A stretch of DNA of 64,000 nt from Burkholderiales bacterium (GCA_019748155.1 JAIEPY010000021.1:2958-66957), one strand, 5' to 3'. Counted from the stretch's first letter, positions 4,247-48,360 are shown. Made by a program: numbers and translations. The notes: generated by a model from the sequence alone, not told the origin.

Positions 4247-4906
4247 TTAATGATTTTCAAGTTTTAATTTTCGGGCTTGCCAATCAGGCATGTGAGTTGT
4301 CAGATAGTTATAAAAATTTTTGTCGTGATTATAATGAAGCAAATGCACTAGTTCATGAAAAATAACATATTCGATAGCAAATACATGTTTTTTAATCAAA
4401 TCCAAATTTAAGTTAATATAAGATTTTTTGGGGTTACAAGAACCCCAACGAGTCTTCATCTTCCGGATCGATACTTTAGCTACTTCTTTTTTAACTATTT
4501 TAGTGTATTTGGCAATAATTTTTTTAAAATAATCCTCAGCTTTTTCTTTATACCATGTATCAATTAGCTGTATTTTTTTGTCATAGTTGGTTTTGTTGGT
4601 TAACTTGACATGAAGATAGCCGCCAATTAATTTAACGGACTCGTTGCTTGCAGTAGAGACCTTTAAACGATAATTTCGCCCCAAATATGCAAAGCTTTCC
4701 CCACTAACTAGCTCTTTTTGCGGTTGCTGAAATTTTCTAAAATAGTTTAATTGTACTAAAATCCAGTCATGGCGCTTTTTTAATACCTGATTAATTTTCT
4801 CCTGTGTGGTATTCGCTGGCACGGTCAATACCACTTCGAGCGTAGGCTTCACCTTTAGGCTAATAGTCTTTACTGACTTGTAAATAATCTGTAGATTATC
4901 GAGCAT
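4247..4906 (-). CDS. DUF45/YgjP-like M48-family metallopeptidase
   Basis: HExxH motif in FHELVHLLHYNH near the C-terminus, and typical YgjP-like length. The track ORF starts at a TTG (4960) inside hsdR. The ATG at 4906 (MLDNLQIIYKS..) is more plausible and overlaps the hsdR stop by about 11 nt. Confidence 0.75.
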   Translation of the reverse strand: MLDNLQIIYKSVKTISLKVKPTLEVVLTVPANTTQEKINQVLKKRHDWILVQLNYFRKFQQPQKELVSGESFAYLGRNYRLKVSTASNESVKLIGGYLHVKLTNKTNYDKKIQLIDTWYKEKAEDYFKKIIAKYTKIVKKEVAKVSIRKMKTRWGSCNPKKSYINLNLDLIKKHVFAIEYVIFHELVHLLHYNHDKNFYNYLTTHMPDWQARKLKLENH

Positions 4907-7900
4907 AGTTATTGATTCCGATTGAGCGAGTCGCTGCAATAACTTCAGTTGGATTGTCAAGGTGCAGAGTGAACTGTTTTTCTAAATCGTACAGAATATC
5001 ATCAATTGACTGATCAATTTGATTTCTGACATCACTATTGTGCTGCCAGTCGGGTTTTTTGGAAGCTGTTTTAAATATTTCATCAATTTGCAGGATAGTT
5101 TTAATGAACTCTTTAGGTGCTAATGTGTCCATTACTTCCTGAAGATTGTCGTAGAGTGCCTTAGCACAGCTCTTGTCGCTGATTTCGATGGGATAGCGCG
5201 AGACCTCGTCAATTTGCTTGGACATTAGCATTGTGCGAATATCTTTAGCATGTTTAAGCTTATCTTCTTCACTCATGCGCCCTTCGCGATATTCCTGAAT
5301 AATTTGCTCGATTTTTTGCGAAAGCTTGTCGTAAAAATTAGGGTTCTGCTCGTGATTTTCACGGGCAATTTTTGCAGTAGCGCTAAGAATGGTATCTGCT
5401 TTGGCATTATCTCCAACTAGCCTTTGCAGTTCCTTATCAAAATCCTCTTCAAAGATATTTACTAGCTTGGTCAGTTGATTAACCTCATTGGCGCTGATAA
5501 ATGTGTCGAGAAGCTTTTGCATTTCCCTCTCATATTTACCAAAATTAACCTCTTCCTGATAACGGATTTTGATTGCACGGCGCAGCTCACTATAAAATTT
5601 CATGGAACGCTTATATTGGTTGATTTCCTGTTCAGTTAGCACTTCATCGCTCTTATCACTGGATAACGTTAGCTTCAAAGCTCGTGCAAACAGTGAAAGG
5701 TACTCATAGAAGTTTTTACGTTTATTTTCATCAGCCAGAAATATCTGATAACTTTCCTGATCATTTTTATTGGCTACGGGTTTAAATAAATCTTGTAAAT
5801 GTGAATAGAAAGTTTTGACTTCACCAATTTCAGCCTTAATATCAATTACTGCTCCAGTTAAATCTTCTTCATCAAAGCCAGCCAAGGCGCTATATGAGGT
5901 TAAGGCTTGATCCAGATTACCCAATAAGCCACGATAATCAACGATAAAGCCATATTCTTTGCCCTCATAAAGGCGATTAATCCGTGCGATTGCTTGGAGT
6001 AAATTATGTTCTTTGAGTTCTTTATCAATATAAAGTACCGCAGCACGCGGAGCATCAAAACCAGTTAATAATTTATCCACCACAATCAATAACTCAATCT
6101 CATCGCCATCAATGAACTGACTCTTTACAGAATCTAAAAAGCTTTCTTCATCGCCGTAGCGACGTAATAACTTAGCCCATGCTTCCGTAACATAAAGTTT
6201 GTTATTTTCATCGACTTCCTCGTGCCCTTCTCGAGTATCAGAGGCAGAAATAACAAAAGCGGTTTTAATATTTCCATACATGGCAAATAATTCATGGTAT
6301 TTGATAGCTTCATATTTGCTACTGGTAGCAAGCATGGCTTTAAAACCAGTACCTTGAAAATTTTTAGTAAAGTGCTCATTGATATCCAGAGCAATCATTT
6401 CTAAGCGGCGCTCACTCGATGCAACCCGACTAAAACGTGCCCACTTTCGCTTTAAATCTGCCTTTTGTTCCGTATTTAAATCACGCGAGATCATTTCAAA
6501 ACGACGATCCAATCCAGCTTTATCACTAATCCATTGGTCAACTAAGCGCCCTTCATAGAGCAGCGGTAAAACAGCTTTATCTTTAACCGCCTGATCAATA
6601 GTGTAGCGGTGAATTAATCCGCCAAACTTTAGGATAGAGCCTTTTTCGCGTTTAAGTAGAGGGGTTCCAGTAAATCCCAGGTAACAAGCGAGAGGGAAGA
6701 CTTTTTTCATGGCTTTATGCAAATCACCACCTTGGGTACGGTGTGACTCATCAACCAGTACAAATATATTGGGGTCGCTTATCACCCATTTTTCATTTTT
6801 AACGGTATCAAATTTATGAATTAAGGTAGTTATTACGCTTAGTCCAGATTGTAGTTTCTCAATCAAATCATGCCCACTATTGGCCCGCCCAGCTTTTATT
6901 TCGCTGTTTTGAAAAGTAGTGTGGATTTGACTATCCAAGTCTTTTCTGTCGGTTACGACAATGATACGTGAACCAACAATTTCCCGTTTGAGTAATTTGG
7001 TCAGCATTGCCATTGTCAAAGATTTACCGCTGCCTTGGGTATGCCAGACTAAACCTCCGGCACGGCTACCATCCGGCGCAAAATTTTCAATTTTATGAAA
7101 GATTTCTTTAATTGCAAAATATTGCTGATAACGTGCTATTTTTTTAACGCGCTTATCAAAAAGAATGAATGAATGCAATAATTCCAGAACACGGGTTTTA
7201 CTAAATAGGCTAAATATGGTTTGATCTAGTTTGCTTGTCATACGATTGGATACTAAACCAGCTAATTGTTCCTGATTATCTTCTTCCCATACCGCATAAA
7301 ACTTGGCTGGTGTTCCTGTTGTCGCATATTGTGGATGAGAATTATTTCCAGCTAAAGTTAACTGTACATATTTAAATAGCTGTGGTATTTCGTCGTTGCC
7401 TTGATTACGGATCATTTGTGAAATACCTTGTTCGGCATTAATGCTGGATTTTTTGAGTTCAATTACCGCAAAAGGGATACCATTTATAAACAGCACCAGA
7501 TCAGGACGCCGAGTTTTATCAAATTCGCTGGTAACTTGGCGGATAACGCTATATTCTTCGGTAACATGGAAGACATTATTTTCAAAATTATCAAAATCAA
7601 TGTAACGCAAAGAGAAGCTTTTTCTATCACCATCAGCTAGTTCTTCATCATAGCTAGTACCTAAGGTCAATTTATCGCTGATTTTTTGATTAGCCGCGTT
7701 TAAACCCTCATTAAGCGGTATATTTAACTCTTCGACTGCCCGCGAGATATTTTTGGGTGAAAACTTATAATTAACTCCTTTGTATTCAAAAGAATTAATT
7801 TTTTGCAATTGGGCTAACAAAATATCTTTCAACACTACTTCATGTAAACGGTTATCGCGTAGCACAATATTGTCTTCGCGGCTAATATAAACATAGCCCA

Positions 7901-7964
7901 TTGATTTTAATAACTCTACTGTATTTTGTTGAATTGCTGATTCGTTTAAAATATTTGGATTCAC
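4896..7964 (-). CDS. hsdR: Type I restriction enzyme, R subunit
   Basis: N-terminal PD-(D/E)xK-like segment PDLVLFINGIPFAVIELKK; SF2 helicase motifs HTQGSGKSLTM (Walker A), VLVDESHRTQ (DEAH-type) and QAIARINR (motif VI). The likely start is the GTG at 7964, preceded by GGAGGTGG and overlapping the upstream stop (GTGA). The track start at 7979 is a TTG. Confidence 0.95.
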   Translation of the reverse strand: MNPNILNESAIQQNTVELLKSMGYVYISREDNIVLRDNRLHEVVLKDILLAQLQKINSFEYKGVNYKFSPKNISRAVEELNIPLNEGLNAANQKISDKLTLGTSYDEELADGDRKSFSLRYIDFDNFENNVFHVTEEYSVIRQVTSEFDKTRRPDLVLFINGIPFAVIELKKSSINAEQGISQMIRNQGNDEIPQLFKYVQLTLAGNNSHPQYATTGTPAKFYAVWEEDNQEQLAGLVSNRMTSKLDQTIFSLFSKTRVLELLHSFILFDKRVKKIARYQQYFAIKEIFHKIENFAPDGSRAGGLVWHTQGSGKSLTMAMLTKLLKREIVGSRIIVVTDRKDLDSQIHTTFQNSEIKAGRANSGHDLIEKLQSGLSVITTLIHKFDTVKNEKWVISDPNIFVLVDESHRTQGGDLHKAMKKVFPLACYLGFTGTPLLKREKGSILKFGGLIHRYTIDQAVKDKAVLPLLYEGRLVDQWISDKAGLDRRFEMISRDLNTEQKADLKRKWARFSRVASSERRLEMIALDINEHFTKNFQGTGFKAMLATSSKYEAIKYHELFAMYGNIKTAFVISASDTREGHEEVDENNKLYVTEAWAKLLRRYGDEESFLDSVKSQFIDGDEIELLIVVDKLLTGFDAPRAAVLYIDKELKEHNLLQAIARINRLYEGKEYGFIVDYRGLLGNLDQALTSYSALAGFDEEDLTGAVIDIKAEIGEVKTFYSHLQDLFKPVANKNDQESYQIFLADENKRKNFYEYLSLFARALKLTLSSDKSDEVLTEQEINQYKRSMKFYSELRRAIKIRYQEEVNFGKYEREMQKLLDTFISANEVNQLTKLVNIFEEDFDKELQRLVGDNAKADTILSATAKIARENHEQNPNFYDKLSQKIEQIIQEYREGRMSEEDKLKHAKDIRTMLMSKQIDEVSRYPIEISDKSCAKALYDNLQEVMDTLAPKEFIKTILQIDEIFKTASKKPDWQHNSDVRNQIDQSIDDILYDLEKQFTLHLDNPTEVIAATRSIGINNYAR

Positions 7965-9319
7965 TTTACCACCTCCCAATAACCACCTTTAGCACTACCA
8001 ACCCGACGGAGTAGGCCAAGTTCTTTTAGTTTCTTGATATTATTTCTGATGTTCTTCTCATTTATTTGGATAATTTCAGATAGTTGCAGCTGTGTTATAT
8101 GTGAATTTTCAGCGATTAACTCAAGTATTTTTAGCTGATTTGAATTTAAATGTTTTTCTAGGTCTTTTTCTAGGTCTTTTTCTAGGTCTGCATTAAAATA
8201 AAACTCAACCCACAAGCCATTAAGCCATCTAAACTTTGGAACTATTTCGTTAAATTTTTGTGACTCTGCCACAATTTTTTCTATCCCGCGCCCCCATGAT
8301 TCTATATAACCAGCGAGAAAGAACGGATAAGCAAGAGCCGGATTAAATGGTTCAGAATTATGTTTTTGTAAAAGTGTGTCAACTGTCCAATGTGCTGGCA
8401 ATTCGCCGGGATTCCACATTAATAGCTTGTCATCATATACGCTTATTTGTATCGTATGTTGTGAAGCATAATCTTTATGAACGACAGCATTAATTAGCGC
8501 TTCTCTAAATGCTAGCTCGGAGATTGGAAAGCTCTCAACTCTTTGAATACCATCATACGTAATTAATGCTTTGAGATATTTGCTAAAAATAAGCTCGAGC
8601 GTTTTATCAACTTGTTCAAAAAGGTTACCTGTAACTACATCTTGATAGATTAAATCGCTATTTGATTTAAAATAGCCAATTTTAATTGAGCTTCCCGTCA
8701 CATAGCGCTCGGGATCTTTGGCAAAAAGTAAAGTTGCGGCACGTTTAAAATAATTGCCTTCTTTTAAATGCAGCTTGTCGATCAGGATATGATCATCCTC
8801 ATTTAAGAGATTGGCATCAATTCTTTTCTTTTTGGTAGCTTTGGCGCGGAAAAGCTTAAATGCAAATGGATCTAAATCCTCATCACCAAAATATGGCACG
8901 GGTACACCATCCCATTTTTTACCTTGGCGCGACAACAAAAATTTATCCAGTGCTGCCCCTTTAAACTCATGGGTACTACTTCCACTGCGATAATAATATG
9001 AACCTTTATAACTTACTGGATATGGATAAGCCTCAACACTGATTTCAAGATAATTCTTATTTTCAGCGATTTTCAGCTTAACTTCGACCATAATCCCTAA
9101 AATATCACGGACTTTATTCGGAATATCTGCTAATAGTTTAGCGGTGTTTTCAATGCCAACGATGATACCATTATCGGCAATACCAATATAAAGCGTTCCA
9201 CCTGCGCTATTCGCAAATGCACTTATCCACTTGATATACTCATCTTTCCATAGTTGCTTAAACTCGATGTTTTGTGATTCGTTTTGTTGAATTACTAATT
9301 TGTTAGTGCTCGGTGTCAT
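7961..9319 (-). CDS. AlbA_2 (Schlafen-type divergent AAA) + HATPase_c_4-like + C-terminal winged-HTH protein
   Basis: 452 aa. N-terminus ESQNIEFKQLW..ISAFANSAGGTLYIGI is typical of AlbA_2. The central REALINAVVHKDY..GRGIEKI resembles HATPase_c_4. The C-terminal LKILELIAENSHITQLQLSEII..LKELGLLRRVG looks like a wHTH. The stop overlaps the hsdR start. Confidence 0.7.
   Translation of the reverse strand: MTPSTNKLVIQQNESQNIEFKQLWKDEYIKWISAFANSAGGTLYIGIADNGIIVGIENTAKLLADIPNKVRDILGIMVEVKLKIAENKNYLEISVEAYPYPVSYKGSYYYRSGSSTHEFKGAALDKFLLSRQGKKWDGVPVPYFGDEDLDPFAFKLFRAKATKKKRIDANLLNEDDHILIDKLHLKEGNYFKRAATLLFAKDPERYVTGSSIKIGYFKSNSDLIYQDVVTGNLFEQVDKTLELIFSKYLKALITYDGIQRVESFPISELAFREALINAVVHKDYASQHTIQISVYDDKLLMWNPGELPAHWTVDTLLQKHNSEPFNPALAYPFFLAGYIESWGRGIEKIVAESQKFNEIVPKFRWLNGLWVEFYFNADLEKDLEKDLEKHLNSNQLKILELIAENSHITQLQLSEIIQINEKNIRNNIKKLKELGLLRRVGSAKGGYWEVVK
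8152..8187. repeat. 3 x 12-bp perfect tandem repeat (TTTTTCTAGGTC) encoding (DLEK)3 in a linker
   Basis: Read directly from the sequence. It lies in frame inside the 452-aa gene, between the ATPase-like region and the wHTH. Confidence 0.9.
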
Positions 9320-9337
9320 AAAATAAACTTTATAAAA

Positions 9338-9946
9338 TTATTGTAATTTACGAATCGCTTCATTATACGCATTATTCATTTCAAGAAGTCCGTCATTCAA
9401 AAAATAAATTACGTTATCACTCAAGAGTTTACTTGCTTTATTACGTTCATTACGATAACCTTCTTGATCATAGATATAGTACGTTGATAACGCTTCTTGA
9501 GATTTAAGAAATTTGTTCCAAAAAGTTTGCATCGCCATACTTATCTCTGTTGCTCCAAATTTATCAGCTCTAAGTTTTAAAATCATTAATTTACCTTTTA
9601 GCTCTAGATAATTTGGGATGATATCTTCAATCTTTTCATTATTGTTTTTCATTATTCCAAGATATTTGGGAAAAGGAAAACTATTTTGATATTTAGTCCA
9701 AGTATCAAAGAAATCTTCCATGTGTTCAGTATATTGTCTAATTATCATTTGGTGAGTTTGCTTTTTACTTATTTTATATGTAAAATATGCAAATATGCTT
9801 GCAGGGATTGCAACTAGAGTTGTTGAGTCAATATCTTTAACAAAACTAAAGTTATAAAGCTTAGCAATAATCAGAATAATTGATGACGTAGCAAACATAA
9901 TGACTAGTATATCTGCCGTATCATACAACAATGTTTTAACTTTCAT
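9338..9946 (-). CDS. hypothetical membrane protein: N-terminal 2-TM hairpin plus helical soluble tail
   Basis: 202 aa. Hydrophobic segments at about residues 12-31 and 42-59, then about 140 aa rich in K/E/N/Y with no motif I recognise. Gaps of 15 and 18 nt to its neighbours inside the R-M operon. Confidence 0.6.
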   Translation of the reverse strand: MKVKTLLYDTADILVIMFATSSIILIIAKLYNFSFVKDIDSTTLVAIPASIFAYFTYKISKKQTHQMIIRQYTEHMEDFFDTWTKYQNSFPFPKYLGIMKNNNEKIEDIIPNYLELKGKLMILKLRADKFGATEISMAMQTFWNKFLKSQEALSTYYIYDQEGYRNERNKASKLLSDNVIYFLNDGLLEMNNAYNEAIRKLQ

Positions 9947-9961
9947 TTTTTCAATATCTCT

Positions 9962-10867
9962 TTATGCGGCAATTATCTTGCTTGAATTACTTTCTCGCTG
10001 TTTACCAGTAAGTTCCCCAGTATAAAAAGCCTCATTTAATACTTTAATTAATACTGTAATATCTTTATTTTTCTTAACCTGATATTTATCGTTGTCTTTT
10101 TCCAATGTTACAACATTCTGATATCTATTAATATATTCGATTAGTCTCTGGTTTTCTATTTCAAAATTTTGCTCAATAAGAAATCTAATATGCTTTAGAT
10201 TAGATGGTTCTATTTTTATGGTTAGATCTATGTTGAATATTTCAGAGTTATTAATTTTATCTATAAATAAACTTTGTTGCTCTTTACTTGCTTCTTTATA
10301 TAGTTCAGTAAATTCGCTATGTATATTTTTTAAGTGTGCAAAGCTTTTGAAGTATATTTTATGGTCTGCTTTGTTTATACAAATATCAACCCGATTATAT
10401 ACCTCTAAGCGATTACTTTCTTCTTGATAGATTACGTGATCATTTATGCAACTAAGGAAATGAGTGTTTTCAACATATTTTGCTTTTGTAATATGCTGTA
10501 AATTCATGATAGTTTGCTCGTGCTCATTAACCAAATAACTACAAATCCATAACACCGAAGATAATTCTGTTTTGCTTATGTTACTAATAGTTGCGGTTTG
10601 ATCTGTAATATTATATATATTATCGATGGATTGTTGGATTTTTACTTTAATTTGTGGATCAATATTATCATCATCATAGCTTATATAGAAAAACTGATTA
10701 TTATCTAATTTGTACGAAGGATTATCTAGAAAATTAATGCTCTCAATGTCTTCATTTATAGGATAAATAAATAGTTGCTGATTCGAATTTTTAAATTTTT
10801 CTATATCATCTGTTCTGTCTAGTAGCTTTCTAAACTGTTGGTTTTTTAACTGAGCAATAATTGTCAT
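9962..10867 (-). CDS. soluble 301-aa protein, candidate KwaB-like (DUF4868) Kiwa component
   Basis: ATG preceded by AGGAGA and overlapping the upstream stop (TAATG). Size and position after a small 4-TM protein match KwaB. The C-terminal ..VLIKVLNEAFYTGELTGKQRESNSSK.. resembles my recollection of DUF4868 C-termini. Not verified by any profile search. Confidence 0.45.
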   Translation of the reverse strand: MTIIAQLKNQQFRKLLDRTDDIEKFKNSNQQLFIYPINEDIESINFLDNPSYKLDNNQFFYISYDDDNIDPQIKVKIQQSIDNIYNITDQTATISNISKTELSSVLWICSYLVNEHEQTIMNLQHITKAKYVENTHFLSCINDHVIYQEESNRLEVYNRVDICINKADHKIYFKSFAHLKNIHSEFTELYKEASKEQQSLFIDKINNSEIFNIDLTIKIEPSNLKHIRFLIEQNFEIENQRLIEYINRYQNVVTLEKDNDKYQVKKNKDITVLIKVLNEAFYTGELTGKQRESNSSKIIAA

Positions 10868-11430
10868 TATTCATTATCTCCTGTATCTATAAAAAGGTAT
10901 TCATCTAATTTTTTGATTAAAATGGCTGTTGGTTGTGCTAGTTTTATGTTTTTACGTTTACTTAATAATAAAAAACCTGCATAGTCAGTTTCAATTTTAT
11001 ACATCCGCCAGCCCAGTACGTATGCAATTGGATTTAAGAATGCTATATTACACATATAAAACAATATAAATAAAAAAGCGAGCAGAATAATTGACAATGT
11101 TGTTGTACTTGTATTTATTGATAATGCTACAAAAATGATACCTAAATACGATGGCATATATTCCGTATATACGGGATATATTTTTGTTACTATGATATTA
11201 TCGGTGCTTAACCAATTATATATATTAGGCAACCAAGTATAAAAAATAATACTTACAACTAGCCAAGTCAATAGAATGCTTACAATAATCCAATGTTTTA
11301 TAGAATAATTTATCAATTCAGCCCAAGAGCTATAGTTAAAATGAGAATTATTGGCAAAGTATAATAAAATTATCCAAAAAAATGATAATATAGTAACAAA
11401 AGTCTTTAGCGATATTTCCTTTAAGTTCAT
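10867..11430 (-). CDS. small 4-TM membrane protein, candidate KwaA-like Kiwa component
   Basis: 187 aa. Hydrophobic helices at about residues 9-26, 46-66, 92-105 and 110-131, plus a soluble tail of about 55 aa. The ATG overlaps the hsdS stop (ATGA). Confidence 0.45.
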   Translation of the reverse strand: MNLKEISLKTFVTILSFFWIILLYFANNSHFNYSSWAELINYSIKHWIIVSILLTWLVVSIIFYTWLPNIYNWLSTDNIIVTKIYPVYTEYMPSYLGIIFVALSINTSTTTLSIILLAFLFILFYMCNIAFLNPIAYVLGWRMYKIETDYAGFLLLSKRKNIKLAQPTAILIKKLDEYLFIDTGDNE

Positions 11431-12656
11431 ACCCGAACTTGCCCTGTTAATAGTTTTTGCACTAGCGATTGTTTTTGTAGTTTTAGTTGGTTTAATATTT
11501 CAGTTTGCTTGGTAGTTTCATCATCAATGCGGGTTAAAAAATCTGCGATTTTGGTTTGCTCGTCCAAATAACAACTAACAGTTATAAGAAATTTTTCTAA
11601 AGTAGATTTTTGAATATTTGGTAATCCTGATCCAACTCTTAGCAGCATAATTTTGGACTCTTGGTATTTTAATAAATAAAATAAATATTCATTTTGCACT
11701 GCTTTTGTAGCAACAGTATAGCAATGACCACCAGCCCAAAATTTATTTTTTACAAAACTAACATAACCGCAAGAGTTACCACCTTCGCTAACCGTTATAG
11801 AATTCTCAGTGTTATATTTATCTGTAAGACCAGAGTAATCAGTTCCTCCATTTAATACAGGATATATTCCATCATCAAGCATGTGTACTTTATTAAGTTG
11901 TTCACCTTTTTTAATTATACAAATATCACCAAGTTTTTTGGTTTGCCAAGCGGGGTAATCATTGCCATTATCGTCTTTGAAGCGGATTTTCTGGCTGAAA
12001 ATCTGCTGCATGACACCTTTTTTGAAAACTTGCTTTTGCTTAATTAATTGCTCTTGTTTGGCAATAGCATCATCCCAAGTTGATAACATCTCAGCAATTT
12101 TTTCTTGTTCTTTCAGTGGTGGTAATATAAAAGGTAAACTCCTTTGCTCAGTTATACCTATATAAGCTCTAGTTCCTCCACCTGCTATTTCTTGTAACTT
12201 TTGTTGAAATATTTTGCTCAAAAAATATTGAAAAATATAATGGCGATTAAGTTGTGAGTGATCTTTTACTCGGTAGTATGTTACTTGTGGTGTTAACATA
12301 ATATAATCAGTGTATAAATTTTTCACCATAACTACATTTCCTACTGTACCCTTATGTGTTAATAGTACATCTCCAGTGATTGAAAAACCTTTTTGTAATC
12401 TATCTGCTTGCTTTTTTGTTATAAAAGCACAGTTTTCTAAATCTAAAATACCATTTCTAACATTATTTGCCATAATAAATGGTATTCCACTAGCCACAAA
12501 ATCACTACTTTTAGGATGTATGTCACCATGATTTCCATCTAACGGCTTATATAAATAGCTCATATTCACCAGTTGATTAATCGTCAGTACATCCCAATCC
12601 TCAGGAATAATCCCAAGCTTAGTTTGCTTATATCCTTGTGGTATCTGCTTAGTCAT
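11427..12656 (-). CDS. hsdS: Type I restriction enzyme, S (specificity) subunit, full length with two target-recognition domains
   Basis: 409 aa with the two conserved coiled-coil spacers: LPPLKEQEKIAEMLSTWDDAIAKQEQLIKQKQ in the middle and LDEQTKIADFLTRIDDETTKQTEILNQLKLQKQSLVQKLLTGQVRV at the C-terminus. Confidence 0.9.
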   Translation of the reverse strand: MTKQIPQGYKQTKLGIIPEDWDVLTINQLVNMSYLYKPLDGNHGDIHPKSSDFVASGIPFIMANNVRNGILDLENCAFITKKQADRLQKGFSITGDVLLTHKGTVGNVVMVKNLYTDYIMLTPQVTYYRVKDHSQLNRHYIFQYFLSKIFQQKLQEIAGGGTRAYIGITEQRSLPFILPPLKEQEKIAEMLSTWDDAIAKQEQLIKQKQVFKKGVMQQIFSQKIRFKDDNGNDYPAWQTKKLGDICIIKKGEQLNKVHMLDDGIYPVLNGGTDYSGLTDKYNTENSITVSEGGNSCGYVSFVKNKFWAGGHCYTVATKAVQNEYLFYLLKYQESKIMLLRVGSGLPNIQKSTLEKFLITVSCYLDEQTKIADFLTRIDDETTKQTEILNQLKLQKQSLVQKLLTGQVRV

Positions 12657-13515
12657 TCAATTTCTCCAATATTGCCACGCTGGCATTATCCATCTTGCTA
12701 AAAGCAAACCATTTTTTGCCAAGATCTTTAAGACTTGCGCCAATGTGATAAACCTCATTATCAATTAGCAAAAATCTATCATGTGATAAATCAAACTCTT
12801 TAATCGTGAGGTTATTATATTGAGCTTTATATTTTTGTACATCTAAAGCTAGTTGTTTGCTAATAGTTTTGGTATAGATTGTAATTGTTATATTTGGGTT
12901 TTTGCTAAATAGGGTTAATACCGTGTCATCAATGTAGTTGTCTAGTAATATAATTGACTGGCGAGCACGTTTAATTAAATCACTAACAAAAGCATAAGCA
13001 TCGTAAATCTGCCCCTCAAAAAATATCCCTTGTGAGGGTTGTATTTCTTTTGACTCAAGTGCTTCAAAAATTTTACTAAAGTGATCATCATGTTTAAGTA
13101 ATTTCATCTCTATATTTTCAAGTCGTTGAAATATTCCCGTATTTTGAGCGATAAACTTCCGCATAGTAACAAATGCTCGAATAATTTTTATACTCATGTT
13201 TACCGCTGAATCTGTCTTTAAGACAGAAGCTAACATTGACACACCTTGCTCGGTGAATACTAGTGGCGAACTACCGCCTAAATGCTGCTTGGAAGGTATC
13301 GCATTTTGCGATACCATAAAATCAACCTCACTATCGTTTAGCACAAACATAAAATCTTCAGGGAATCTATCAATATTTCTTTTTACCTGCTCCCTAAGCC
13401 TTATCGGTTTTACCCCATAAAGCACCGCTATATCTTTATCGAGCATAACTTGCAAGTTTCTAATCGTGTAAATTTTATTTTGAATGTTCTGTTCATCGAT
13501 AATTAGCTCATTCAT
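12649..13515 (-). CDS. ORF6N (KilA-N-like) domain protein with conserved C-terminal HDRF..GASLKDLGKKWF module
   Basis: The N-terminus IYTIRNLQVMLDKDIAVLYGV..LREQVKRNIDRFPEDFMF is typical ORF6N. The C-terminal SHDRFLLIDNEVYHIGASLKDLGKKWFAFSKM block recurs in R-M-associated ORF6N proteins. Confidence 0.7.
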   Translation of the reverse strand: MNELIIDEQNIQNKIYTIRNLQVMLDKDIAVLYGVKPIRLREQVKRNIDRFPEDFMFVLNDSEVDFMVSQNAIPSKQHLGGSSPLVFTEQGVSMLASVLKTDSAVNMSIKIIRAFVTMRKFIAQNTGIFQRLENIEMKLLKHDDHFSKIFEALESKEIQPSQGIFFEGQIYDAYAFVSDLIKRARQSIILLDNYIDDTVLTLFSKNPNITITIYTKTISKQLALDVQKYKAQYNNLTIKEFDLSHDRFLLIDNEVYHIGASLKDLGKKWFAFSKMDNASVAILEKLND

Positions 13516-13832
13516 TATTTAACCCCAATATTATCTAACTTCACACCACCACACGCATAGCGTGTTAGCATAATATCTTGAATCGGACGTTCTGCACCAG
13601 AACCAAGCGCTACCATTTTCGTGACGTCACGAAAATGGTCTGCACAATTTGATCCAGCTGTTTCGCAGCTATTTTTTGCTTTAGTGATGACGTTCTCAAA
13701 ATTCTCCCACCGCTCATAATCCAAGATCTTTTGCAAATCACGTGCATACCAATATTCAATCGCACTGTTTTCTACTTGATGTGCCAACGAATTAAAGCTA
13801 GCTTGTAATTGTGTGATTAGTTCAGCATTCAT
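13515..13832 (-). CDS. DinD (DNA-damage-inducible protein D) N-terminal fragment, probably a gene remnant
   Basis: 105 aa. The segment ..YWYARDLQKILDYERWENFENVITKAKNSCETAG..HFRDVTKMV..IQDIMLTRYAC matches the N-terminal third of E. coli DinD as I recall it. It then ends abruptly. Confidence 0.55.
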   Translation of the reverse strand: MNAELITQLQASFNSLAHQVENSAIEYWYARDLQKILDYERWENFENVITKAKNSCETAGSNCADHFRDVTKMVALGSGAERPIQDIMLTRYACGGVKLDNIGVK

Positions 13833-13834
13833 GA

Positions 13835-15175
13835 TTACACCTTTATTTTTTTTGATAATGGAGTTTTTGTGGTCAACTTTTTCTCACTGGATTTTGCTTT
13901 ACGCTCAAGTTTTTGGATATCTTCTACTGTCGGCAAATCTTCGGGCATTGTTCCGCCTAATTCCTGAATAGTTTCACGTACTTTTTTGCCAACTTCATAA
14001 TAGGTTTGATTAGCCTGTACCTTGTTTTGTATTTCATCACGTTTTAGTTTTTCTTCGGTTTGAGTGGCTCGGAATAAATTAGCAGCCAATTCAGTACTAT
14101 TCATATGATCTAAGATCTTTTGAGATTTTTGTAATCCCTTATGCTTATGTATGCTTTTTGCATCTAATCCGCCATATAAGCCTTTATCGCCTCCATTTAT
14201 TTGCTTGGCTATTTGCTCTAATTCTGCTATATCATCTTCATTGGCTTGTTCTAGTTCTTGAGTTTGACGGTGTTTATCAAATAAAGCATAACGCTCTTCG
14301 GCTAATTGTTTGGCTACGCTTGCTCTTATTGTTCCAGCATGAGTTAGTAATTCGCGCTCGTTAAAGCTCAGGAAGGCATCAACTTTTTGTTCCCATTCCG
14401 CCATAGTTATAGCTTTGCGTTTTTTTGCCTGATCTTCGGCATAGTCCAGATACATGGTTACAATCCGGTTAAGCTCGTCAACTTCTTGTTGTGAAAGATA
14501 GTTTTTAGCAGTATCGACATCCATTTTTCTAACTTTTGAACCTATCCATGAGGTTAAGCCCATATTGGTTAATTCTGGATTGCTCCGGTTAGCAATAATT
14601 TCGGCAGCAGTATGACCAGTTACCGCCCACAGCATTCTATTTTGAACTTTTTTAAAGAATAATTTAGCCTGATCATCGTCTTTGTTGTAATCAATTGCGG
14701 TAATATAGAGGTCTTTAATTTTCTGGTAAAAGCGCTTTTCCGATGCTCTAATTTCACGGATGCGGGCTAACCATTCATCGAAGTAATCCCACCGTGTAGC
14801 TTGTTTGAGGCGAGCATCGTCCATAGCAAAACCTTTGATAAGGTACTCTTTGAGGATAGTGGTAGCCCAGATTCTAAAGTGAGTAGCGCTATTACTATTA
14901 ACTCGATAACCTATAGAGATGATAGCATCAAGATTATAGTGCTTTGTTTTATATTTTTTACCATCCGTCGCAGTTGTCAAGAAATCCTTGACAACTGAAT
15001 TTTCATCCAGTTCGCCACTTTCAAAGATATTTTTTACATGCAAACTAATATTCTGCTTGGTGGTATCAAATAACTCAGCAATTTTTTGCTGCGAAAGCCA
15101 AATAGTCTCATTTTCCAGTAAAATTTCTACTTTTATGTCTTTATTTGGTGTTTTATATAAAATGATTTCACTCAT
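13835..15175 (-). CDS. RhuM-family protein fused to a DinD C-terminal domain (chimera)
   Basis: Residues 1 to about 325 are a classic RhuM core (IWLSQQKIAELF..YNLDAIISIGYRVNS..HFRIWATTILKEYLIKGF..IRASEKRFYQK..RIVTMYLDYAE). From GLYGGLDAKSIHKHKGLQKSQKILDHMNSTELAANLFRATQTEEKLKRD..QELGGTMPEDLP it matches the DinD C-terminus. Confidence 0.75.
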   Translation of the reverse strand: MSEIILYKTPNKDIKVEILLENETIWLSQQKIAELFDTTKQNISLHVKNIFESGELDENSVVKDFLTTATDGKKYKTKHYNLDAIISIGYRVNSNSATHFRIWATTILKEYLIKGFAMDDARLKQATRWDYFDEWLARIREIRASEKRFYQKIKDLYITAIDYNKDDDQAKLFFKKVQNRMLWAVTGHTAAEIIANRSNPELTNMGLTSWIGSKVRKMDVDTAKNYLSQQEVDELNRIVTMYLDYAEDQAKKRKAITMAEWEQKVDAFLSFNERELLTHAGTIRASVAKQLAEERYALFDKHRQTQELEQANEDDIAELEQIAKQINGGDKGLYGGLDAKSIHKHKGLQKSQKILDHMNSTELAANLFRATQTEEKLKRDEIQNKVQANQTYYEVGKKVRETIQELGGTMPEDLPTVEDIQKLERKAKSSEKKLTTKTPLSKKIKV

Positions 15176-15176
15176 C

Positions 15177-16664
15177 TTATAACCCCAGCTCTTTGAGATA
15201 GTTATTCATCTTGATTTTTATTTCAGCCAATTCCACCTCTAATTGTACAATTTTAGTCTTTGTTGCATCCAGATCAATAGGCTCTTCTTCCTCAAAGGTA
15301 TCAACATAGCGAGGAATATTTAGATTATAGTCATTTTCTTTGATTTCTTCAATTGTTGCAATATGTGAATATTTCTCAATTTCTTCGCGATTATGATAAG
15401 TCTCTAAGATTTTAGCTAATTGTGTATCGTTAAGACTGTTTTGATTTTTAGCTTTATCAAAGTCATTACTGGCATCAATAAATAGTATCTCTTGATGTTG
15501 ACGGTTCTTTTTGAACACTAAAATACAGGCTGGAATACTTGTTCCAAAGAATAAATTAGCTGGTAAGCCAATCACCGCATCGAGTAAATTTTCATCAATA
15601 AGTTTTTGGCGGATTTTACCCTCGCTAGAACCACGGAATAAAACGCCATGCGGTAAAACTACACTCATGCGCCCATTTTCATTTAGACTTTGGATCATAT
15701 GAATAACAAAAGCATAGTCTCCTTTGCTTTTAGGTGGTACAGCAAAATTTGTAAAGCGCTTAAATGGGTCTTTCTCGACATTATCCGCGCCCCATTTATC
15801 AAGACTGAATGGTGGATTTGCCACGATAACATCAAACTTCATTAAGTGATCATTTTCTAAATGCAGCGGGTTGCCAATTGTGTCACCCCATGCAATTTTG
15901 GCATCATTTATCTCATGCAAATACATATTCATTCGACATAATGCTTGAGTTTGTCCGTTGCGCTCTTGTCCATAAATCGCAAAATTGTTATTGCCAACTT
16001 CTTTAGCGGCTTTAATTAATAACGAGCCAGATCCACAAGTTGGGTCATAGATGCGATCTCCTTCTTTGGCGGCTACTAATTTAGCAAGCAAGGTTGAAAC
16101 TTCGCTGGGAGTAAAAAATTCACCGCCTTTTTTGCCTGCATCGCTAGCAAAATGAGAGATTAAGTACTCGTAACTATTACCGATAATATCCATATTGTCT
16201 AGGCATGAAGGTCTTAAATCCAGTCGAGTATCGCTAAAATCCTCAAGTAAATTTTTTAATATGCTATTACGTTCTTTGGTATCACCTAACATCTGACGGT
16301 TATTAAAATCAACATTTCTAAAAATGCCTTCGAGTTTTTCAATATTATCTTCTTCAATTCTGGCGAGGGCTTTATTAATTATTTCGCCAAGGTTATCAGC
16401 TTCTTTATTTTTTAATAAATATTCAAAAGTGCAAGAGTTATCAAGAATAAATTTTTCTCGTTCCAGTGCCCGTTTAATGCGTTCTACATCGCCATCATAT
16501 CTAGCGCTAATTTGCTCTAGCTTTTCTTTATAAAAATCAGAAAGATACTTTACAAATAACATACTTAGAATGTAATCTTTATATTGTGAGCTATCCATTG
16601 TTCCACGAAAAGTATCACAGGCTTTCCATACGACATTATTAATAATATCTTGAGTTGTCTTCAT
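15177..16664 (-). CDS. hsdM: Type I restriction enzyme, M subunit (N6-adenine DNA methyltransferase)
   Basis: SAM-binding motif I DPTCGSGSLL, catalytic motif IV VANPPFS and an N-terminal HsdM_N-like region. AAGGA Shine-Dalgarno upstream. Confidence 0.95.
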   Translation of the reverse strand: MKTTQDIINNVVWKACDTFRGTMDSSQYKDYILSMLFVKYLSDFYKEKLEQISARYDGDVERIKRALEREKFILDNSCTFEYLLKNKEADNLGEIINKALARIEEDNIEKLEGIFRNVDFNNRQMLGDTKERNSILKNLLEDFSDTRLDLRPSCLDNMDIIGNSYEYLISHFASDAGKKGGEFFTPSEVSTLLAKLVAAKEGDRIYDPTCGSGSLLIKAAKEVGNNNFAIYGQERNGQTQALCRMNMYLHEINDAKIAWGDTIGNPLHLENDHLMKFDVIVANPPFSLDKWGADNVEKDPFKRFTNFAVPPKSKGDYAFVIHMIQSLNENGRMSVVLPHGVLFRGSSEGKIRQKLIDENLLDAVIGLPANLFFGTSIPACILVFKKNRQHQEILFIDASNDFDKAKNQNSLNDTQLAKILETYHNREEIEKYSHIATIEEIKENDYNLNIPRYVDTFEEEEPIDLDATKTKIVQLEVELAEIKIKMNNYLKELGL

Positions 16665-16682
16665 CTTTATATATCCTTGCCT

Positions 16683-17252
16683 TTATTTGATAAGAGTTTC
16701 AAAAATTTCAGTTTTAAGTTGGTTTTTTTCATTAATAAGTTTATTGAGTAAATCAATTTCCTGATTCGCAGCATCTATGTAATTGACTATTTTTTGTTGC
16801 TTCTCAAGCGGTGGCAGATTAATCTCCAACTCCATTAAATCAGCCGTTTTTATCATTGGGATTGCGGTACCTTGAGTTACTAATTTATTTTGAGTAAACT
16901 GCAAATTTAAATAGTATGTCAAATATTTACTATCCAGTAGGTTAGGGAAGATATTAGTTATAATTGCCATTAGTGATGATACCATTAGCCCTGTGTTGTT
17001 ATCATTTATAAAAATTGCGTGATTTGGTGAACGTAACCGGACAATAACATCATTTTCTTTGGTTAAATATTGTGTACCAATTTTGGTGCTTGCCGTAAAG
17101 TGTTCATATGGTAGTTCTCCTAAATCATTTGAGCTCACAAATGATTTTAGGGTTAAAGCCTTGTAGTCAATTGTATTTGTGCTTGCCAAATTAGCCTTTT
17201 TACGTTCAAGTGATAGACCAATTCTTACATCTGTTAATTCTTTAAGCTTCAT
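16683..17252 (-). CDS. hsdS: half-size Type I S subunit (single target-recognition domain plus one conserved helix)
   Basis: One variable domain followed by LPPLEKQQKIVNYIDAANQEIDLLNKLINEKNQLKTEIFETLIK. The probable start is the ATG at 17252 (MKLKELTD..), preceded by GAGAGG. The track start at 17282 is less likely. Confidence 0.75.
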   Translation of the reverse strand: MKLKELTDVRIGLSLERKKANLASTNTIDYKALTLKSFVSSNDLGELPYEHFTASTKIGTQYLTKENDVIVRLRSPNHAIFINDNNTGLMVSSLMAIITNIFPNLLDSKYLTYYLNLQFTQNKLVTQGTAIPMIKTADLMELEINLPPLEKQQKIVNYIDAANQEIDLLNKLINEKNQLKTEIFETLIK

Positions 17253-17510
17253 TTTTTTACCTCTCATGGCGTAGTTTAACATAAACTATGTGCTATAAGT
17301 TTAAATATAGCAATAATTTTATGAGAAGGCTATATTGGTGAGTTTAATGATTAGTTTACGCTGGCTACGGACAGCGCTCATTTAGAAGGTGTATGTCGAC
17401 TGTTAGCCCTTGATAGGAATAAATAAGTCTATGCAAGAGCGTCCACCGTGAGGGATAGTCTGAAGGGAGTAAATGGCGTAGTTTGCGTGATGAACAGGAA
17501 TTAGATAGAA

Positions 17511-17603: not shown

Positions 17604-18197
17604 CTACTTCCAAACTCCCTCTTTCCAGTGTCTTCTGCACACCGAAACATATTTAGTGTCGATCTTCTTGAGATTTTCATCATCAACCACTACTGGCGCA
17701 CCTTGTTTAACTGCTACGCCATCGCGAACCAGCATATTAAAATTGGCTTTACGCCCACAGTGGCAAATTGTTTTAACTTCTTCCAAGGTATCTGCGATTG
17801 CGAGTAAGGTAGTAGCAGCAGGAAAGGGTTCACCACGATAATCACTGCGTAAGCCATAGCAAATTACCGGGATATTGAGATAATCAACTACATCTGAAAG
17901 CTGAATAATTTGCTCTGAGCTAAAAAAGTGAATTTCATCGATAAGAACACAAGCGATTTTTTGCTGTTCGTTTTGCGTTTTGATCAAGTCAAACAAATTA
18001 TCCTCAATCGTGGTTGAGATTGCCTCTTTATCAAAACCAATACGTGAACGGACTTTATTATCACCCGCACGCCGATCAACCGCAGAGGTGACTACCAAAG
18101 TATGTTGCCCACGATCTTCGTAGTTATAGGCAACTTTTAACAAATCAAGCGTTTTTCCTGCATCCATAGCAGAATAGCGAAAAAATAATTTAGCCAT
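17604..18197 (-). CDS. tdk: thymidine kinase
   Basis: MAKLFFRYSAMDAGKT P-loop start, as in Tdk. C-terminal Zn-ribbon cysteines (CHCGRKA .. CRRH). Confidence 0.92.
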   Translation of the reverse strand: MAKLFFRYSAMDAGKTLDLLKVAYNYEDRGQHTLVVTSAVDRRAGDNKVRSRIGFDKEAISTTIEDNLFDLIKTQNEQQKIACVLIDEIHFFSSEQIIQLSDVVDYLNIPVICYGLRSDYRGEPFPAATTLLAIADTLEEVKTICHCGRKANFNMLVRDGVAVKQGAPVVVDDENLKKIDTKYVSVCRRHWKEGVWK

Positions 18198-32116: not shown

Positions 32117-32191
32117 TGGTGCCCCCGACAGGAATCGAACCTGTAACTGCCCCTTAGGAGGGGGCCGTTATATCCATTTAACTACGAGGAC
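32117..32191 (-). tRNA. tRNA-Arg (anticodon CCU)
   Basis: Hand-folded cloverleaf. Acceptor GTCCTCG/CGGGGGC (two G-U pairs); D stem GTTA/TAAC; anticodon stem GCCCC/GGGGC with loop CTCCTAA; T arm ACAGG-TTCGATT-CCTGT; encoded CCA. 75 nt. Confidence 0.88.
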
Positions 32192-47000: not shown

Positions 47001-48193
47001 AGATTGAGCTTAATCGCCTACGTCAGGATATTCGTGATCAAATGTTGATTATTGAAGAAGATGCGGCAGAACGGGTTAAATCAACGCTACTTGGTCAAGA
47101 GCTAAAAGCTAAAAAAGTTAAGATTACTCAGGAAGTTCTTGATGGCTATAAAGCTAAACGTGATTGGTTAACGATTGAAGTTAAAGACGAAACGGTTAAT
47201 GAGCAATTAACCATGTTGGTGAAAGCAATTGACGAAAAACGTGCTGAATTAGATGCGCGCTTTAAAGTTCAAAAAGACAAACTTTACCAAGGTGTTGATT
47301 TACCAAATGGCGTAATCAAAATGGTTAAAGTCTTTGTTGCCGTTAAACGTCGTTTACAGCCTGGGGATAAAATGGCTGGTCGTCATGGTAATAAAGGGGT
47401 GGTATCTAAGGTATTGCCAGTTGAAGATATGCCATATATGGAAGATGGACGCACCGTTGATGTCGTTCTTAATCCACTTGGGGTACCTTCACGGATGAAT
47501 ATCGGTCAGATTCTCGAGGTTCATCTGGGCTTGGCGGCTAAAGGTCTTGGACATAAAATTGATAAAATGTTACGCGAACAACGTAATTTAGCTGAAGTTA
47601 AAGATTTTGTTAATACTATCTATACTTCATCAGGTCGTTCTGAAGACGTCAAATCATTGAGTGAACCAGAATTCTTGGAATTAGCCCATAATTTATGTGA
47701 CGGTGTGCCATTTGCAACTCCGGTATTTGATGGTGCTAAAGAAGAAGAAATCAAAAATATGTTAAAACTTGCTGATTTACCAGAATCAGGACAAGTAACC
47801 TTGTACGACGGTCGTACTGGTTTGGCTTTTGATCGACCGGTAACGATTGGTTATATGTATGTACTTCGTCTGCATCATTTGGTTGATGAAAAAGTCCATG
47901 CTCGTTCAACTGGCCCATACTCATTAGTAACGCAACAACCATTGGGTGGTAAAGCTCAATTTGGTGGACAACGTTTCGGTGAGATGGAGGTGTGGGCACT
48001 GGAAGCATACGGTGCGGCATATATCCTGCAAGAAATGTTAACCGTGAAATCGGATGACGTTGAAGGTCGTACTGAGATGTACGAACGCTTGCTTGAGGGT
48101 GATCATCGTATTTCTGCGAAAATGCCGGAAGCCTTCCGTGTATTGACGCGAGAAGTTAGAGCTCTAGCCTTAGATATGGAACTCGAAGAGTAA
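44063..48193 (+). CDS. rpoB: DNA-directed RNA polymerase beta subunit
   Basis: 1376 aa. [15 protein letters not shown] start and conserved blocks ([51 protein letters not shown]). Confidence 0.99.
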
Positions 48194-48203
48194 ACATTCT
48201 TCT

Positions 48204-48311: not shown

Positions 48312-48360
48312 ACGTTCGTTATAGATATGAGTAGTTACAAAAATTTTTGGAGTAAAGCAG

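What the first reader, a model, noticed from the sequence alone, without database searches (positions are those of the whole stretch)
9962..11430. Kiwa-like two-gene cassette (4-TM protein + 301-aa soluble protein) inserted between hsdS and hsdR
Seen: the 187-aa ORF has four hydrophobic helices and a soluble tail. Its ATG overlaps the hsdS stop (ATGA), and its TAA overlaps the ATG of the 301-aa ORF (TAATG, with AGGAGA upstream). Both genes are very AT-rich. Knowledge: Kiwa consists of a small multi-TM KwaA followed by a DUF4868 KwaB of about 300 aa, which matches this order, size and topology. The C-terminal ..VLIKVLNEAFYTGELTGKQRESNSSK.. resembles the conserved DUF4868 C-terminus as I recall it, and this recollection needs checking. 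Inference: this is either a divergent Kiwa embedded in a Type I R-M operon and translationally chained to hsdS, or an unrelated and uncharacterised TM+soluble pair.
Basis: partly seen in the sequence, partly recalled or inferred. Interest (0 to 1): 0.75.

Follow-up and report, generated by a model that had tools for sequence, protein, structure and literature searches.

The report
Divergent Kiwa inside Type I restriction operon
The two genes are a very divergent copy of the known Kiwa anti-phage system (membrane sensor KwaA plus DNA-binding KwaB) that standard KwaB profiles miss, sitting inside a Type I restriction-modification operon, an arrangement that turns out to be common for this branch of Kiwa.

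Summary

- **KwaA (187 aa, 10867-11430, minus strand).** It has four hydrophobic segments. It matches KwaA profiles over nearly full length: PADLOC E 1.3e-7, and NCBIfam KwaA E 3.9e-6, which is below the curated cut-off. A family profile hits solved KwaA 9mrg at E 1.7e-4.
- **KwaB (301 aa, 9962-10867, minus strand).** It hits no KwaB/DUF4868 profile directly.
  - An exhaustive HMMER search found 109 relatives. Of 90 scanned, 70 are PADLOC KwaB.
  - Its AlphaFold model (pLDDT 94.6) matches only solved KwaB structures (E 4.6e-10, TM about 0.6, full length).
- **Purifying selection.** dN/dS against the orthologous locus L001 is 0.18 for kwaA and 0.10 for kwaB.
- **Context.** In 63 related loci a kwaA homologue sits directly upstream of kwaB wherever the contig allows. 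In 17 of 27 informative clusters the pair directly abuts hsdS or hsdR on the same strand.
- **The downstream 202-aa gene** is not a conserved partner.

This is a new, divergent member of a known system. Embedding of defence genes in Type I R-M operons is already described, so interest is moderate.

The parts
10867..11430 (-). kwaA-like gene: 187 aa, four predicted TM segments plus a cytoplasmic tail
   Evidence: PADLOC KwaA PDLC00216, E 1.3e-7, residues 45-182 on profile positions 31-170 of 173. NCBIfam NF041622 KwaA, E 3.9e-6, positions 5-181 of 182, 26.8 bits against a cut-off of 100. The only PDB sequence hits are KwaA 9mrg/9o0i. A family profile hits 9mrg_A at E 1.7e-4 over full length. 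Hydropathy gives four segments. dN/dS 0.18.
9962..10867 (-). kwaB-like gene: 301 aa, soluble, with the two-domain KwaB fold (N-terminal alpha/beta domain plus DUF4868)
   Evidence: No direct Pfam, PADLOC, NCBIfam or PDB sequence hit. The exhaustive HMMER search gave 109 relatives, and 70 of 90 scanned hit PADLOC KwaB. Relatives at 27-35% identity hit KwaB models over full length, E 1e-8 to 1e-11. AF2 model pLDDT 94.6. The top six Foldseek PDB hits are all KwaB, E 4.6e-10 to 2.7e-8, TM 0.55-0.61; the next hit is E 0.17. dN/dS 0.10.
11427..11430 (-). ATGA overlap of the hsdS stop and the kwaA start (translational coupling)
   Evidence: Read from the sequence. The same kind of hsdS-stop/kwaA-start overlap or abutment recurs in L001, L010, L019, L023, L027, L033, L047 and L059.
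10865..10882 (-). TAATG overlap of the kwaA stop and the kwaB start, with an AGGAGA Shine-Dalgarno 9 nt upstream
   Evidence: Read from the sequence.
11427..12656 (-). hsdS (409 aa), directly upstream of kwaA
   Evidence: NCBIfam type I specificity subunit; ORF list.
15177..16664 (-). hsdM (495 aa) of the host operon
   Evidence: TIGR00497 hsdM, E 6e-104.
4896..7979 (-). hsdR (1027 aa) of the host operon, downstream of the cassette
   Evidence: TIGR00348 hsdR, E 9e-147.
9338..9946 (-). 202-aa orphan gene with an N-terminal hydrophobic segment, 15 nt downstream of kwaB. It is a neighbouring cargo gene and not a conserved Kiwa component.
   Evidence: No family hits and no plasmid match. An orthologue exists only in L001, out of 63 related loci. 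GC 0.286; dN/dS 0.17.
7961..9319 (-). 452-aa Schlafen AlbA_2 / HATPase_c_4 / winged-HTH protein, further cargo between kwaB and hsdR
   Evidence: Pfam PF04326 6e-18, PF13749 3e-16, PF13412 2e-7.

Best explanation
The cassette is a highly divergent Kiwa anti-phage system.

Mechanism, inferred by homology with the characterised E. coli system (PMC11785009):
- The 4-TM KwaA oligomerises in the inner membrane and docks KwaB through its cytoplasmic loop and C-terminal domain.
- Membrane perturbation at a phage attachment or DNA-entry site activates the complex.
- KwaB dimers then bind the incoming DNA non-specifically through the DUF4868 domain. This stalls replication and late transcription without cleaving DNA.

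Shown here: the homology and fold of both proteins, their conserved pairing and co-diversification, purifying selection, and their operonic position.

Inferred: the biochemical mechanism and the anti-phage phenotype.

The pair is a self-contained module that has been captured, probably horizontally given its GC of 27% against 33-38% for the hsd genes, at the 3' end of hsdS in a 12-gene Type I R-M operon. It is co-transcribed and translationally coupled with hsdS. The cell therefore expresses a methylation-dependent nuclease and a methylation-independent DNA-trapping system together as layered defence.
For: KwaA identity:
- Searches match KwaA profiles and solved KwaA over near full length.
- One search shows four hydrophobic segments.

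KwaB identity:
- One search found 109 relatives, 20 at E<=1e-10.
- In one search, 70 of 90 scanned are PADLOC KwaB (best E 3e-33). In one search, 29 of 90 hit Pfam PF16162.
- In one search, relatives at 27-35% identity (P0006, P0008, P0010, P0012, P0015) hit KwaB models end to end.
- Searches give a pLDDT 94.6 model whose only significant PDB matches are KwaB (9mrx_D, 9nyu_A, 9mtn).

Pairing:
- A kwaA homologue lies directly upstream of kwaB in 58 of 63 loci. Four of the other five have fewer than 110 nt upstream, and the fifth holds only a kwaB fragment.
- KwaA and KwaB pairwise identities co-vary, Spearman 0.89.

Autonomy:
- The same clade occurs without hsd genes in L002, L016/17, L028, L032, L043, L050-53 and a Roseivivax plasmid.
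- KwaB and HsdM identities barely co-vary: r 0.29, and 70 of 2000 permutations reach that value.

Operon and composition: gene junctions range from -65 to +18 nt across 12 co-oriented genes, with no terminator signal above the shuffled expectation.

Mechanism of canonical Kiwa: PMC11785009.
Against: - The window KwaB itself matches no KwaB/DUF4868 profile, even at E<=1. A 90-sequence family profile does not hit the PDB KwaB sequence.
- hhalign against an E. coli-type KwaB is colinear but weak (E 0.009, probability 4.5%).
- Identity to solved KwaB in the structural alignment is only 12-14%, with rmsd about 6 A. Conservation of the DNA-binding residues and of the KwaA-KwaB interface could not be checked.
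- The KwaA hit is below NCBIfam's curated cut-off (26.8 against 100 bits).
- The KwaA model was too poor (pLDDT 53) to confirm the cytoplasmic beta-barrel.
- No phenotype is available.
Confidence: 0.85

Rival explanations
1. The pair is a functional accessory of the Type I R-M enzyme and not an autonomous system. It could act as a back-up that fires when the R-M complex is inhibited, as PrrC does with EcoprrI. Alternatively it could be a membrane tether that holds incoming DNA for HsdR.
For: - In 17 of 27 informative KwaB clusters, kwaA directly abuts hsdS or hsdR on the same strand, often with overlapping stop and start codons.
- The arrangements hsdR-M-S-kwaAB, hsdM-S-R-kwaAB and hsdM-S-kwaAB-...-hsdR recur over KwaB identities down to about 20%.
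- L040/L041 carry an hsd-coupled Kiwa and a canonical Kiwa side by side.
- PrrC sets a precedent for an hsdS-hsdR embedded gene controlled by the R-M complex (cited in 10.1101/2024.01.29.577857).
Against: - The same clade also occurs with no hsd gene nearby.
- KwaB and HsdM identities are only weakly correlated (r 0.29). The window's HsdM is closest to that of L063 (49%), whose KwaB is only 27% identical. This points to repeated capture, not co-evolution.
- Canonical Kiwa works alone in E. coli (PMC11785009).
- Type I R-M operons embed many unrelated defence genes (10.1101/2024.01.29.577857). Here they also carry RhuM, ORF6N and a Schlafen-like gene.
Confidence: 0.12
2. The unit is a three-gene system in which the 202-aa membrane protein (9338-9946) is an obligatory third component of a Kiwa variant.
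For: - The gene starts 15 nt after kwaB on the same strand and has the same unusually low GC (0.286 against 0.266/0.270).
- It is conserved with the pair in L001 and is under purifying selection (dN/dS 0.17).
Against: It is absent from the other 62 related loci, including the next-closest ones (L002-L010). There, the gene after kwaB is unrelated (a 309-aa unknown, KilA-N, RhuM or hsdR) or absent.
Confidence: 0.08
3. This is an unrelated, uncharacterised TM+soluble pair that only mimics Kiwa in size and order.
For: No direct profile hit for the 301-aa protein.
Against: KwaA profile hits, transitive KwaB homology and an exclusive structural match to KwaB.
Confidence: 0.02

Closest known systems
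Kiwa (KwaA/KwaB) of E. coli O55:H7 RM12579; structures 9mrg, 9mrx, 9mtn, 9nyu; PMC11785009
   Same: - Two co-oriented, overlapping genes in the order kwaA then kwaB.
- KwaA is about 190 aa with four TM helices and a C-terminal 'DE[YF]xFI' tail, plus the 'NP...G..Y' motif after TM4.
- KwaB is about 300 aa with the same full-length fold and a conserved C-terminal motif.
   Different: - Only 12-14% identity to solved KwaB in the structural alignment.
- No KwaB Pfam, PADLOC or NCBIfam profile detects the window protein, so profile-based detection that needs a KwaB hit would be expected to miss the system.
- The system lies inside a Type I R-M operon and is translationally coupled to hsdS.
- The DNA-binding and interface residues are unverified.
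The 270-300 aa PADLOC-recognisable KwaB clade (models PDLC00222/225/234) paired with about 180-aa KwaA, e.g. loci L011, L027, L039, L057, L063
   Same: These are the nearest recognised relatives: E 1e-10 to 1e-40 to the window protein, with the same pairing and the same habit of abutting hsdS or hsdR.
   Different: The window subclade (window, L001-L010, P0005-P0012) is longer (about 300 aa) and 20-27% identical to the main clade. It is mostly embedded between hsdS and hsdR, whereas the main clade is mostly appended after the last hsd gene.
Defence genes embedded in Type I R-M operons: PrrC in EcoprrI, and 'guilt-by-embedding' (Payne et al., bioRxiv 10.1101/2024.01.29.577857)
   Same: The cargo sits between hsdS and hsdR in the same orientation. 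The operon also carries PDC-S05/RhuM-type cargo.
   Different: That paper does not mention Kiwa in its text or held supplements. No evidence here shows that the R-M complex regulates the cargo, as it does PrrC.

Membership tests
Kiwa (KwaA component) | Sequence membership in the KwaA family | tested here: met
   - PADLOC: five KwaA models, best E 1.3e-7 over positions 31-170 of 173.
- NCBIfam NF041622: E 3.9e-6 over positions 5-181 of 182, but 26.8 bits is below the curated cut-off of 100.
- A profile of 38 orthologues hits PDB KwaA 9mrg_A at E 1.7e-4 over full length.
Kiwa (KwaA component) | Four transmembrane helices | tested here: met
   The Kyte-Doolittle scan gives four hydrophobic segments at about 8-28, 47-70, 95-116 and 114-132. 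They are colinear with the KwaA alignment.
Kiwa (KwaA component) | Cytoplasmic beta-barrel formed by ICL1 and the C-terminus, which docks KwaB | tested here: inconclusive
The C-terminal 'DEYLFI' aligns with 'DEFVFI' of 9mrg.
Kiwa (KwaB component) | Direct match to DUF4868/KwaB profiles (Pfam PF16162, PADLOC KwaB) | tested here: not met
   No KwaB hit in PADLOC or Pfam at E<=1, and nothing KwaB-like in NCBIfam. No PDB sequence hit at E<=10.
Kiwa (KwaB component) | Homology to KwaB by iterated or transitive search | tested here: met
   Full-length relatives at E 1e-22 to 1e-40 themselves hit KwaB models end to end at E 1e-8 to 1e-11. 70 of 90 family members are PADLOC KwaB and 29 of 90 hit PF16162.
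Kiwa (KwaB component) | Two-domain KwaB fold (N-terminal Rossmann-like domain plus DUF4868) | tested here: met
   The pLDDT 94.6 model gives six top Foldseek PDB hits, all KwaB: E 4.6e-10 to 2.7e-8, probability 1.00, TM 0.55-0.61 over about 325 columns. The next hit is E 0.17.
Kiwa (system) | kwaA immediately upstream of kwaB, co-oriented, as a conserved pair | tested here: met
   There is a 1-nt overlap in the window. The pair is conserved in 58 of 63 related loci, and the two proteins co-vary with r 0.89.
Kiwa (system) | KwaB binds DNA through a positively charged DUF4868 channel; KwaA4-KwaB2 supercomplex; anti-phage and anti-conjugation phenotype | not testable with these tools
   This needs multimer modelling or cryo-EM, EMSA and plaque assays. 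The properties are described for E. coli Kiwa in PMC11785009.
PrrC-like guard of a Type I R-M enzyme | Embedded between hsdS and hsdR | tested here: met
   Gene order hsdS-kwaA-kwaB-202aa-452aa-hsdR.
PrrC-like guard of a Type I R-M enzyme | Near-exclusive association with Type I R-M, and co-evolution with it | tested here: not met
   10 of 27 informative clusters lack an adjacent hsd gene. The KwaB-HsdM identity correlation is only 0.29.
PrrC-like guard of a Type I R-M enzyme | ABC-ATPase / anticodon-nuclease domains | tested here: not met
   No such domains in either protein.

The most novel reading that the evidence does not exclude
A whole lineage of Kiwa has become a standing module of Type I R-M operons. 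It is translationally coupled to hsdS or hsdR because the two systems cooperate mechanistically. One possibility is that membrane-anchored KwaAB traps entering DNA at the injection site and so hands it to, or buys time for, the translocating Type I enzyme. Another is that it takes over when DNA-mimic anti-restriction proteins disable the enzyme. On this reading the window cassette would be an extreme, profile-invisible member of that cooperative lineage.
Probability: 0.12. Interest if true: 0.7.

Novelty: new member of a known kind. Interest (0 to 1): 0.4.

Why it matters
**Detection gap.** A complete Kiwa system can lie beyond the reach of the KwaB profiles tested here. The window KwaB matches no KwaB profile in Pfam, PADLOC 2.0 or NCBIfam. 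A related pair on a RefSeq plasmid is annotated only as 'hypothetical protein'. Adding this subclade (window, P0002, P0005-P0012, L002-L010) to the profiles would recover missed systems.

**Linkage to Type I R-M.** About 60% of informative clusters in this Kiwa branch are joined stop-to-start to Type I hsd genes. The searched literature mentions this link only incidentally, in a Vibrio co-occurrence table in PMC12409351. It gives a concrete, testable pairing for studying synergy between a methylation-dependent nuclease and a membrane-triggered DNA-trapping system.

**Limits.** Neither Kiwa nor embedding of defence genes in Type I R-M operons is new.

Tried and rejected
- **Direct profile and PDB sequence searches of the 301-aa protein** gave nothing. 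The word-indexed protein search found only two near-identical proteins. Even with a 90-sequence profile it returned only five.
- **A2 profile against PDB sequences** gave no hit. hhalign of A2 against an E. coli-type KwaB was colinear but not significant on its own (probability 4.5%).
- **KwaA structure.** The two-sequence run gave pLDDT 53, so no fold search was attempted on it.
- **The 202-aa gene as a third component** was rejected. It is not homologous to the gene following kwaB in L003, has no hit in plasmids, and is present only in L001.
- **Promoter and terminator scan of the operon** found nothing above the shuffled expectation, so no internal transcription unit can be claimed or excluded.
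- **First genome contigs attempt** with a 14-sequence alignment failed for lack of a conserved stretch. It was repeated with six sequences.
- **Literature.** No statement that Kiwa is preferentially linked to Type I R-M was found, apart from a table entry in PMC12409351.

Full report
**1. Observation**

All relevant genes are on the minus strand. The 187-aa ORF is at 10867-11430 and the 301-aa ORF at 9962-10867. They lie between hsdS (11427-12656) and hsdR (4896-7979). hsdR matches TIGR00348 at E 9e-147 and hsdM (15177-16664) matches TIGR00497 at E 6e-104.

- ATGA at 11427-11430, where the hsdS stop overlaps the kwaA start.
- TAATG at 10865-10869, where the kwaA stop overlaps the kwaB start.
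- AGGAGA at 10877-10882, 9 nt upstream of the kwaB ATG.

A hydropathy scan gives four hydrophobic segments in the 187-aa protein and none in the 301-aa protein. GC is 0.266 and 0.270 for the two genes, against 0.33-0.38 for the hsd genes and 0.372 for the window. Given how frequent stop codons are in this composition, open frames of this length are not chance (about 5e-13 and 2e-8). Against the orthologous locus L001, dN/dS is 0.18 for kwaA and 0.10 for kwaB.

**2. The 187-aa protein is KwaA**

- It hits five PADLOC KwaA models, the best at E 1.3e-7 and nearly end to end.
- It hits NCBIfam's KwaA equivalog over positions 5-181 of 182 at E 3.9e-6, although the score is far below the curated cut-off.
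- Its only PDB sequence matches are the solved KwaA chains.
- A profile of 38 orthologues taken from related loci hits 9mrg_A at E 1.7e-4 over full length. The 'NP...G..Y' motif after TM4 and the C-terminal 'DE[YF]xFI' are shared.

A structure prediction was possible only with two sequences. It was too poor to use (pLDDT 53), so the cytoplasmic beta-barrel of KwaA remains unverified.

**3. The 301-aa protein is KwaB, but only by indirect evidence**

Directly it matches nothing. Pfam, PADLOC, NCBIfam, PHROGs and PDB sequences all give no KwaB hit. The word-indexed search of 5.8 billion proteins found only two near-identical proteins.

The exhaustive HMMER search of 1.84 billion cluster representatives found 109 relatives. 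Twenty have E<=1e-10, and most are 270-300 aa and aligned end to end. Ninety full-length relatives were scanned one by one:
- 70 hit PADLOC KwaB (best E 3e-33).
- 29 hit Pfam PF16162.

The relatives at 27-35% identity to the window protein hit KwaB models over their whole length (P0006, P0008, P0010, P0012 and P0015; E 1e-8 to 1e-11).

With this alignment, AlphaFold2 gave a pLDDT 94.6, pTM 0.86 model. Foldseek against the PDB returned six significant hits. All are KwaB: 9mrx_D, 9nyu_A and four 9mtn chains, at E 4.6e-10 to 2.7e-8 and TM 0.55-0.61 over about 325 columns. Nothing else scored better than E 0.17.

It aligns with 'FIKVLMDDFLTSQLTQ' of an E. coli-type KwaB found by chance in L040. 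That protein is itself E 4e-36 to the solved KwaB.

**4. Context**

- **Close orthologue.** L001 is an ENA contig with 80-84% identical proteins and the same architecture, minus RhuM.
- **Genome scan.** This gave L002, a defence island with the order MmeI-type R-M, an OLD-family AAA/TOPRIM protein, a UvrD-like helicase, a phosphatase, kwaA, kwaB, KilA-N, PDC-S05 and PDC-S02. It also gave L003, a Campylobacterota MAG with the order hsdM, hsdS, Lamassu LmuA-C-B, kwaA, kwaB, unknown, RhuM and hsdR.
- **Metagenome scan.** This gave 60 more loci.

Across the 63 loci, a kwaA homologue lies directly upstream of kwaB in 58. Of the other five, four have fewer than 110 nt upstream and one holds only a kwaB fragment. 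No third gene is conserved; the 202-aa gene of the window recurs only in L001.

After collapsing to 41 clusters at 90% KwaB identity, 27 have at least 1.3 kb upstream of kwaA. In 17 of these, hsdS or hsdR ends at or overlaps the kwaA start on the same strand, and 19 have some hsd gene in the locus. Three architectures recur:
- hsdR-M-S-kwaAB
- hsdM-S-R-kwaAB
- hsdM-S-kwaAB-...-hsdR, which is the arrangement of the window's own subclade

Representative hsd-coupled pairs hit both the KwaA and KwaB PADLOC models.

In L003, a frameshifted remnant of an hsdS 3' end sits directly upstream of kwaA, behind the inserted Lamassu genes. This suggests cassette exchange by recombination at the hsdS 3' end.

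KwaA and KwaB identities co-vary strongly (Spearman 0.89). KwaB and HsdM identities co-vary only weakly (0.29; 70 of 2000 permutations reach this value). The pair therefore co-diversifies as a unit but has been joined to different Type I systems repeatedly.

**5. Mechanism**

Shown: both proteins belong to the Kiwa families, are an obligate pair, are under purifying selection, and sit in a 12-gene, about 13-kb run of co-oriented genes with junctions from -65 to +18 nt.

Inferred from the characterised E. coli system (PMC11785009):
- KwaA tetramers in the membrane dock KwaB dimers.
- Phage-induced membrane perturbation activates the complex.
- KwaB binds the entering DNA through DUF4868 without cutting it. 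Replication forks stall and late transcription fails.

Co-expression with the Type I enzyme would give layered defence, one layer dependent on methylation and one independent of it. Whether there is direct cooperation is open. The strong linkage argues for it. The weak co-evolution, the hsd-free occurrences and the general promiscuity of Type I operons as landing sites argue against it (10.1101/2024.01.29.577857).

**6. Comparison and novelty**

This is Kiwa by architecture, fold and transitive homology. It fails only the direct-profile criterion for KwaB. It is best filed as a new, very divergent member (subclade) of a known system.

Embedding of defence genes between hsdS and hsdR is established, by PrrC/EcoprrI and by Payne et al.'s 'guilt-by-embedding'. 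That paper and its held supplements do not mention Kiwa. The only precedent I found for a Kiwa-Type I link is a row in a Vibrio co-occurrence table (PMC12409351).

**7. Verdict**

Confidence that this is a Kiwa homologue pair is about 0.85, with the mechanism inferred by homology. Interest is moderate (0.4). The result adds a detection-gap example and a quantified, apparently under-reported coupling between one Kiwa branch and Type I R-M operons. It does not add a new kind of system.

Noticed in passing
window 4247-17282 (minus strand): The Type I R-M operon is packed with cargo. Twelve co-oriented genes have junctions of -65 to +18 nt. In order they are: a half-size hsdS (199 aa), hsdM, RhuM (PDC-S05-like), a Bro-N-like 105-aa gene, an ORF6N 288-aa gene, hsdS, kwaA, kwaB, a 202-aa orphan, a 452-aa Schlafen-AlbA_2/HATPase_c_4/wHTH gene, hsdR, and a YgjP-like metallopeptidase.
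   Followed up: partly
window 9338-9946 (minus strand): This 202-aa orphan has an N-terminal hydrophobic segment and no family, plasmid or PDB-level annotation. It is as AT-rich as kwaAB (GC 0.286), is under purifying selection (dN/dS 0.17), and is conserved only in L001 (where it carries an internal insertion). Its function is unknown; it may be an independent embedded defence candidate.
   Followed up: partly
L003 about 9380-9450: A frameshifted remnant of an hsdS 3' end ('...ELKEILLSK / MSTIEG*') lies directly upstream of kwaA and downstream of an inserted Lamassu (LmuA-LmuC-LmuB). It looks like a footprint of cassette exchange at the hsdS 3' end.
   Followed up: partly
L040 12422-14023 and L041 15442-18381 (minus strand): These contigs carry two Kiwa systems. 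One is an hsdM-S-R-coupled kwaAB followed by RhuM. The other is an E. coli-type Kiwa (KwaA 202 aa; KwaB 327 aa, E 4e-36 to solved KwaB). In L041 the second kwaB is split, with transposase-like ORFs lying between the two pieces.
   Followed up: partly
L004-L063 (metagenome loci): RhuM/PDC-S05-family genes repeatedly follow kwaB directly (L009, L029, L039-L045, L054) or sit just before hsdR (L003, L010). In the window, RhuM lies between hsdM and hsdS. This is a recurrent companion of the hsd-Kiwa arrangement.
   Followed up: no
L064 (Roseivivax marinus plasmid NZ_CP090156.1, record 407-1789): A kwaA-like (181 aa) and kwaB-like (277 aa) pair is annotated only as 'hypothetical protein' in RefSeq. 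It lies next to a restriction endonuclease, a methyltransferase, an HNH gene and a recombinase.
   Followed up: no
window 17604-18197 and 44063-52548: The flanks look chromosomal. There is a thymidine-kinase-like ORF directly beside the operon, two very long ORFs (1376 and 1395 aa) of rpoB/rpoC size, and one tRNA-Arg(CCT) at 32117-32191. An identical KwaA protein is recorded in NCBI from a 'Burkholderiales bacterium' MAG.
   Followed up: no
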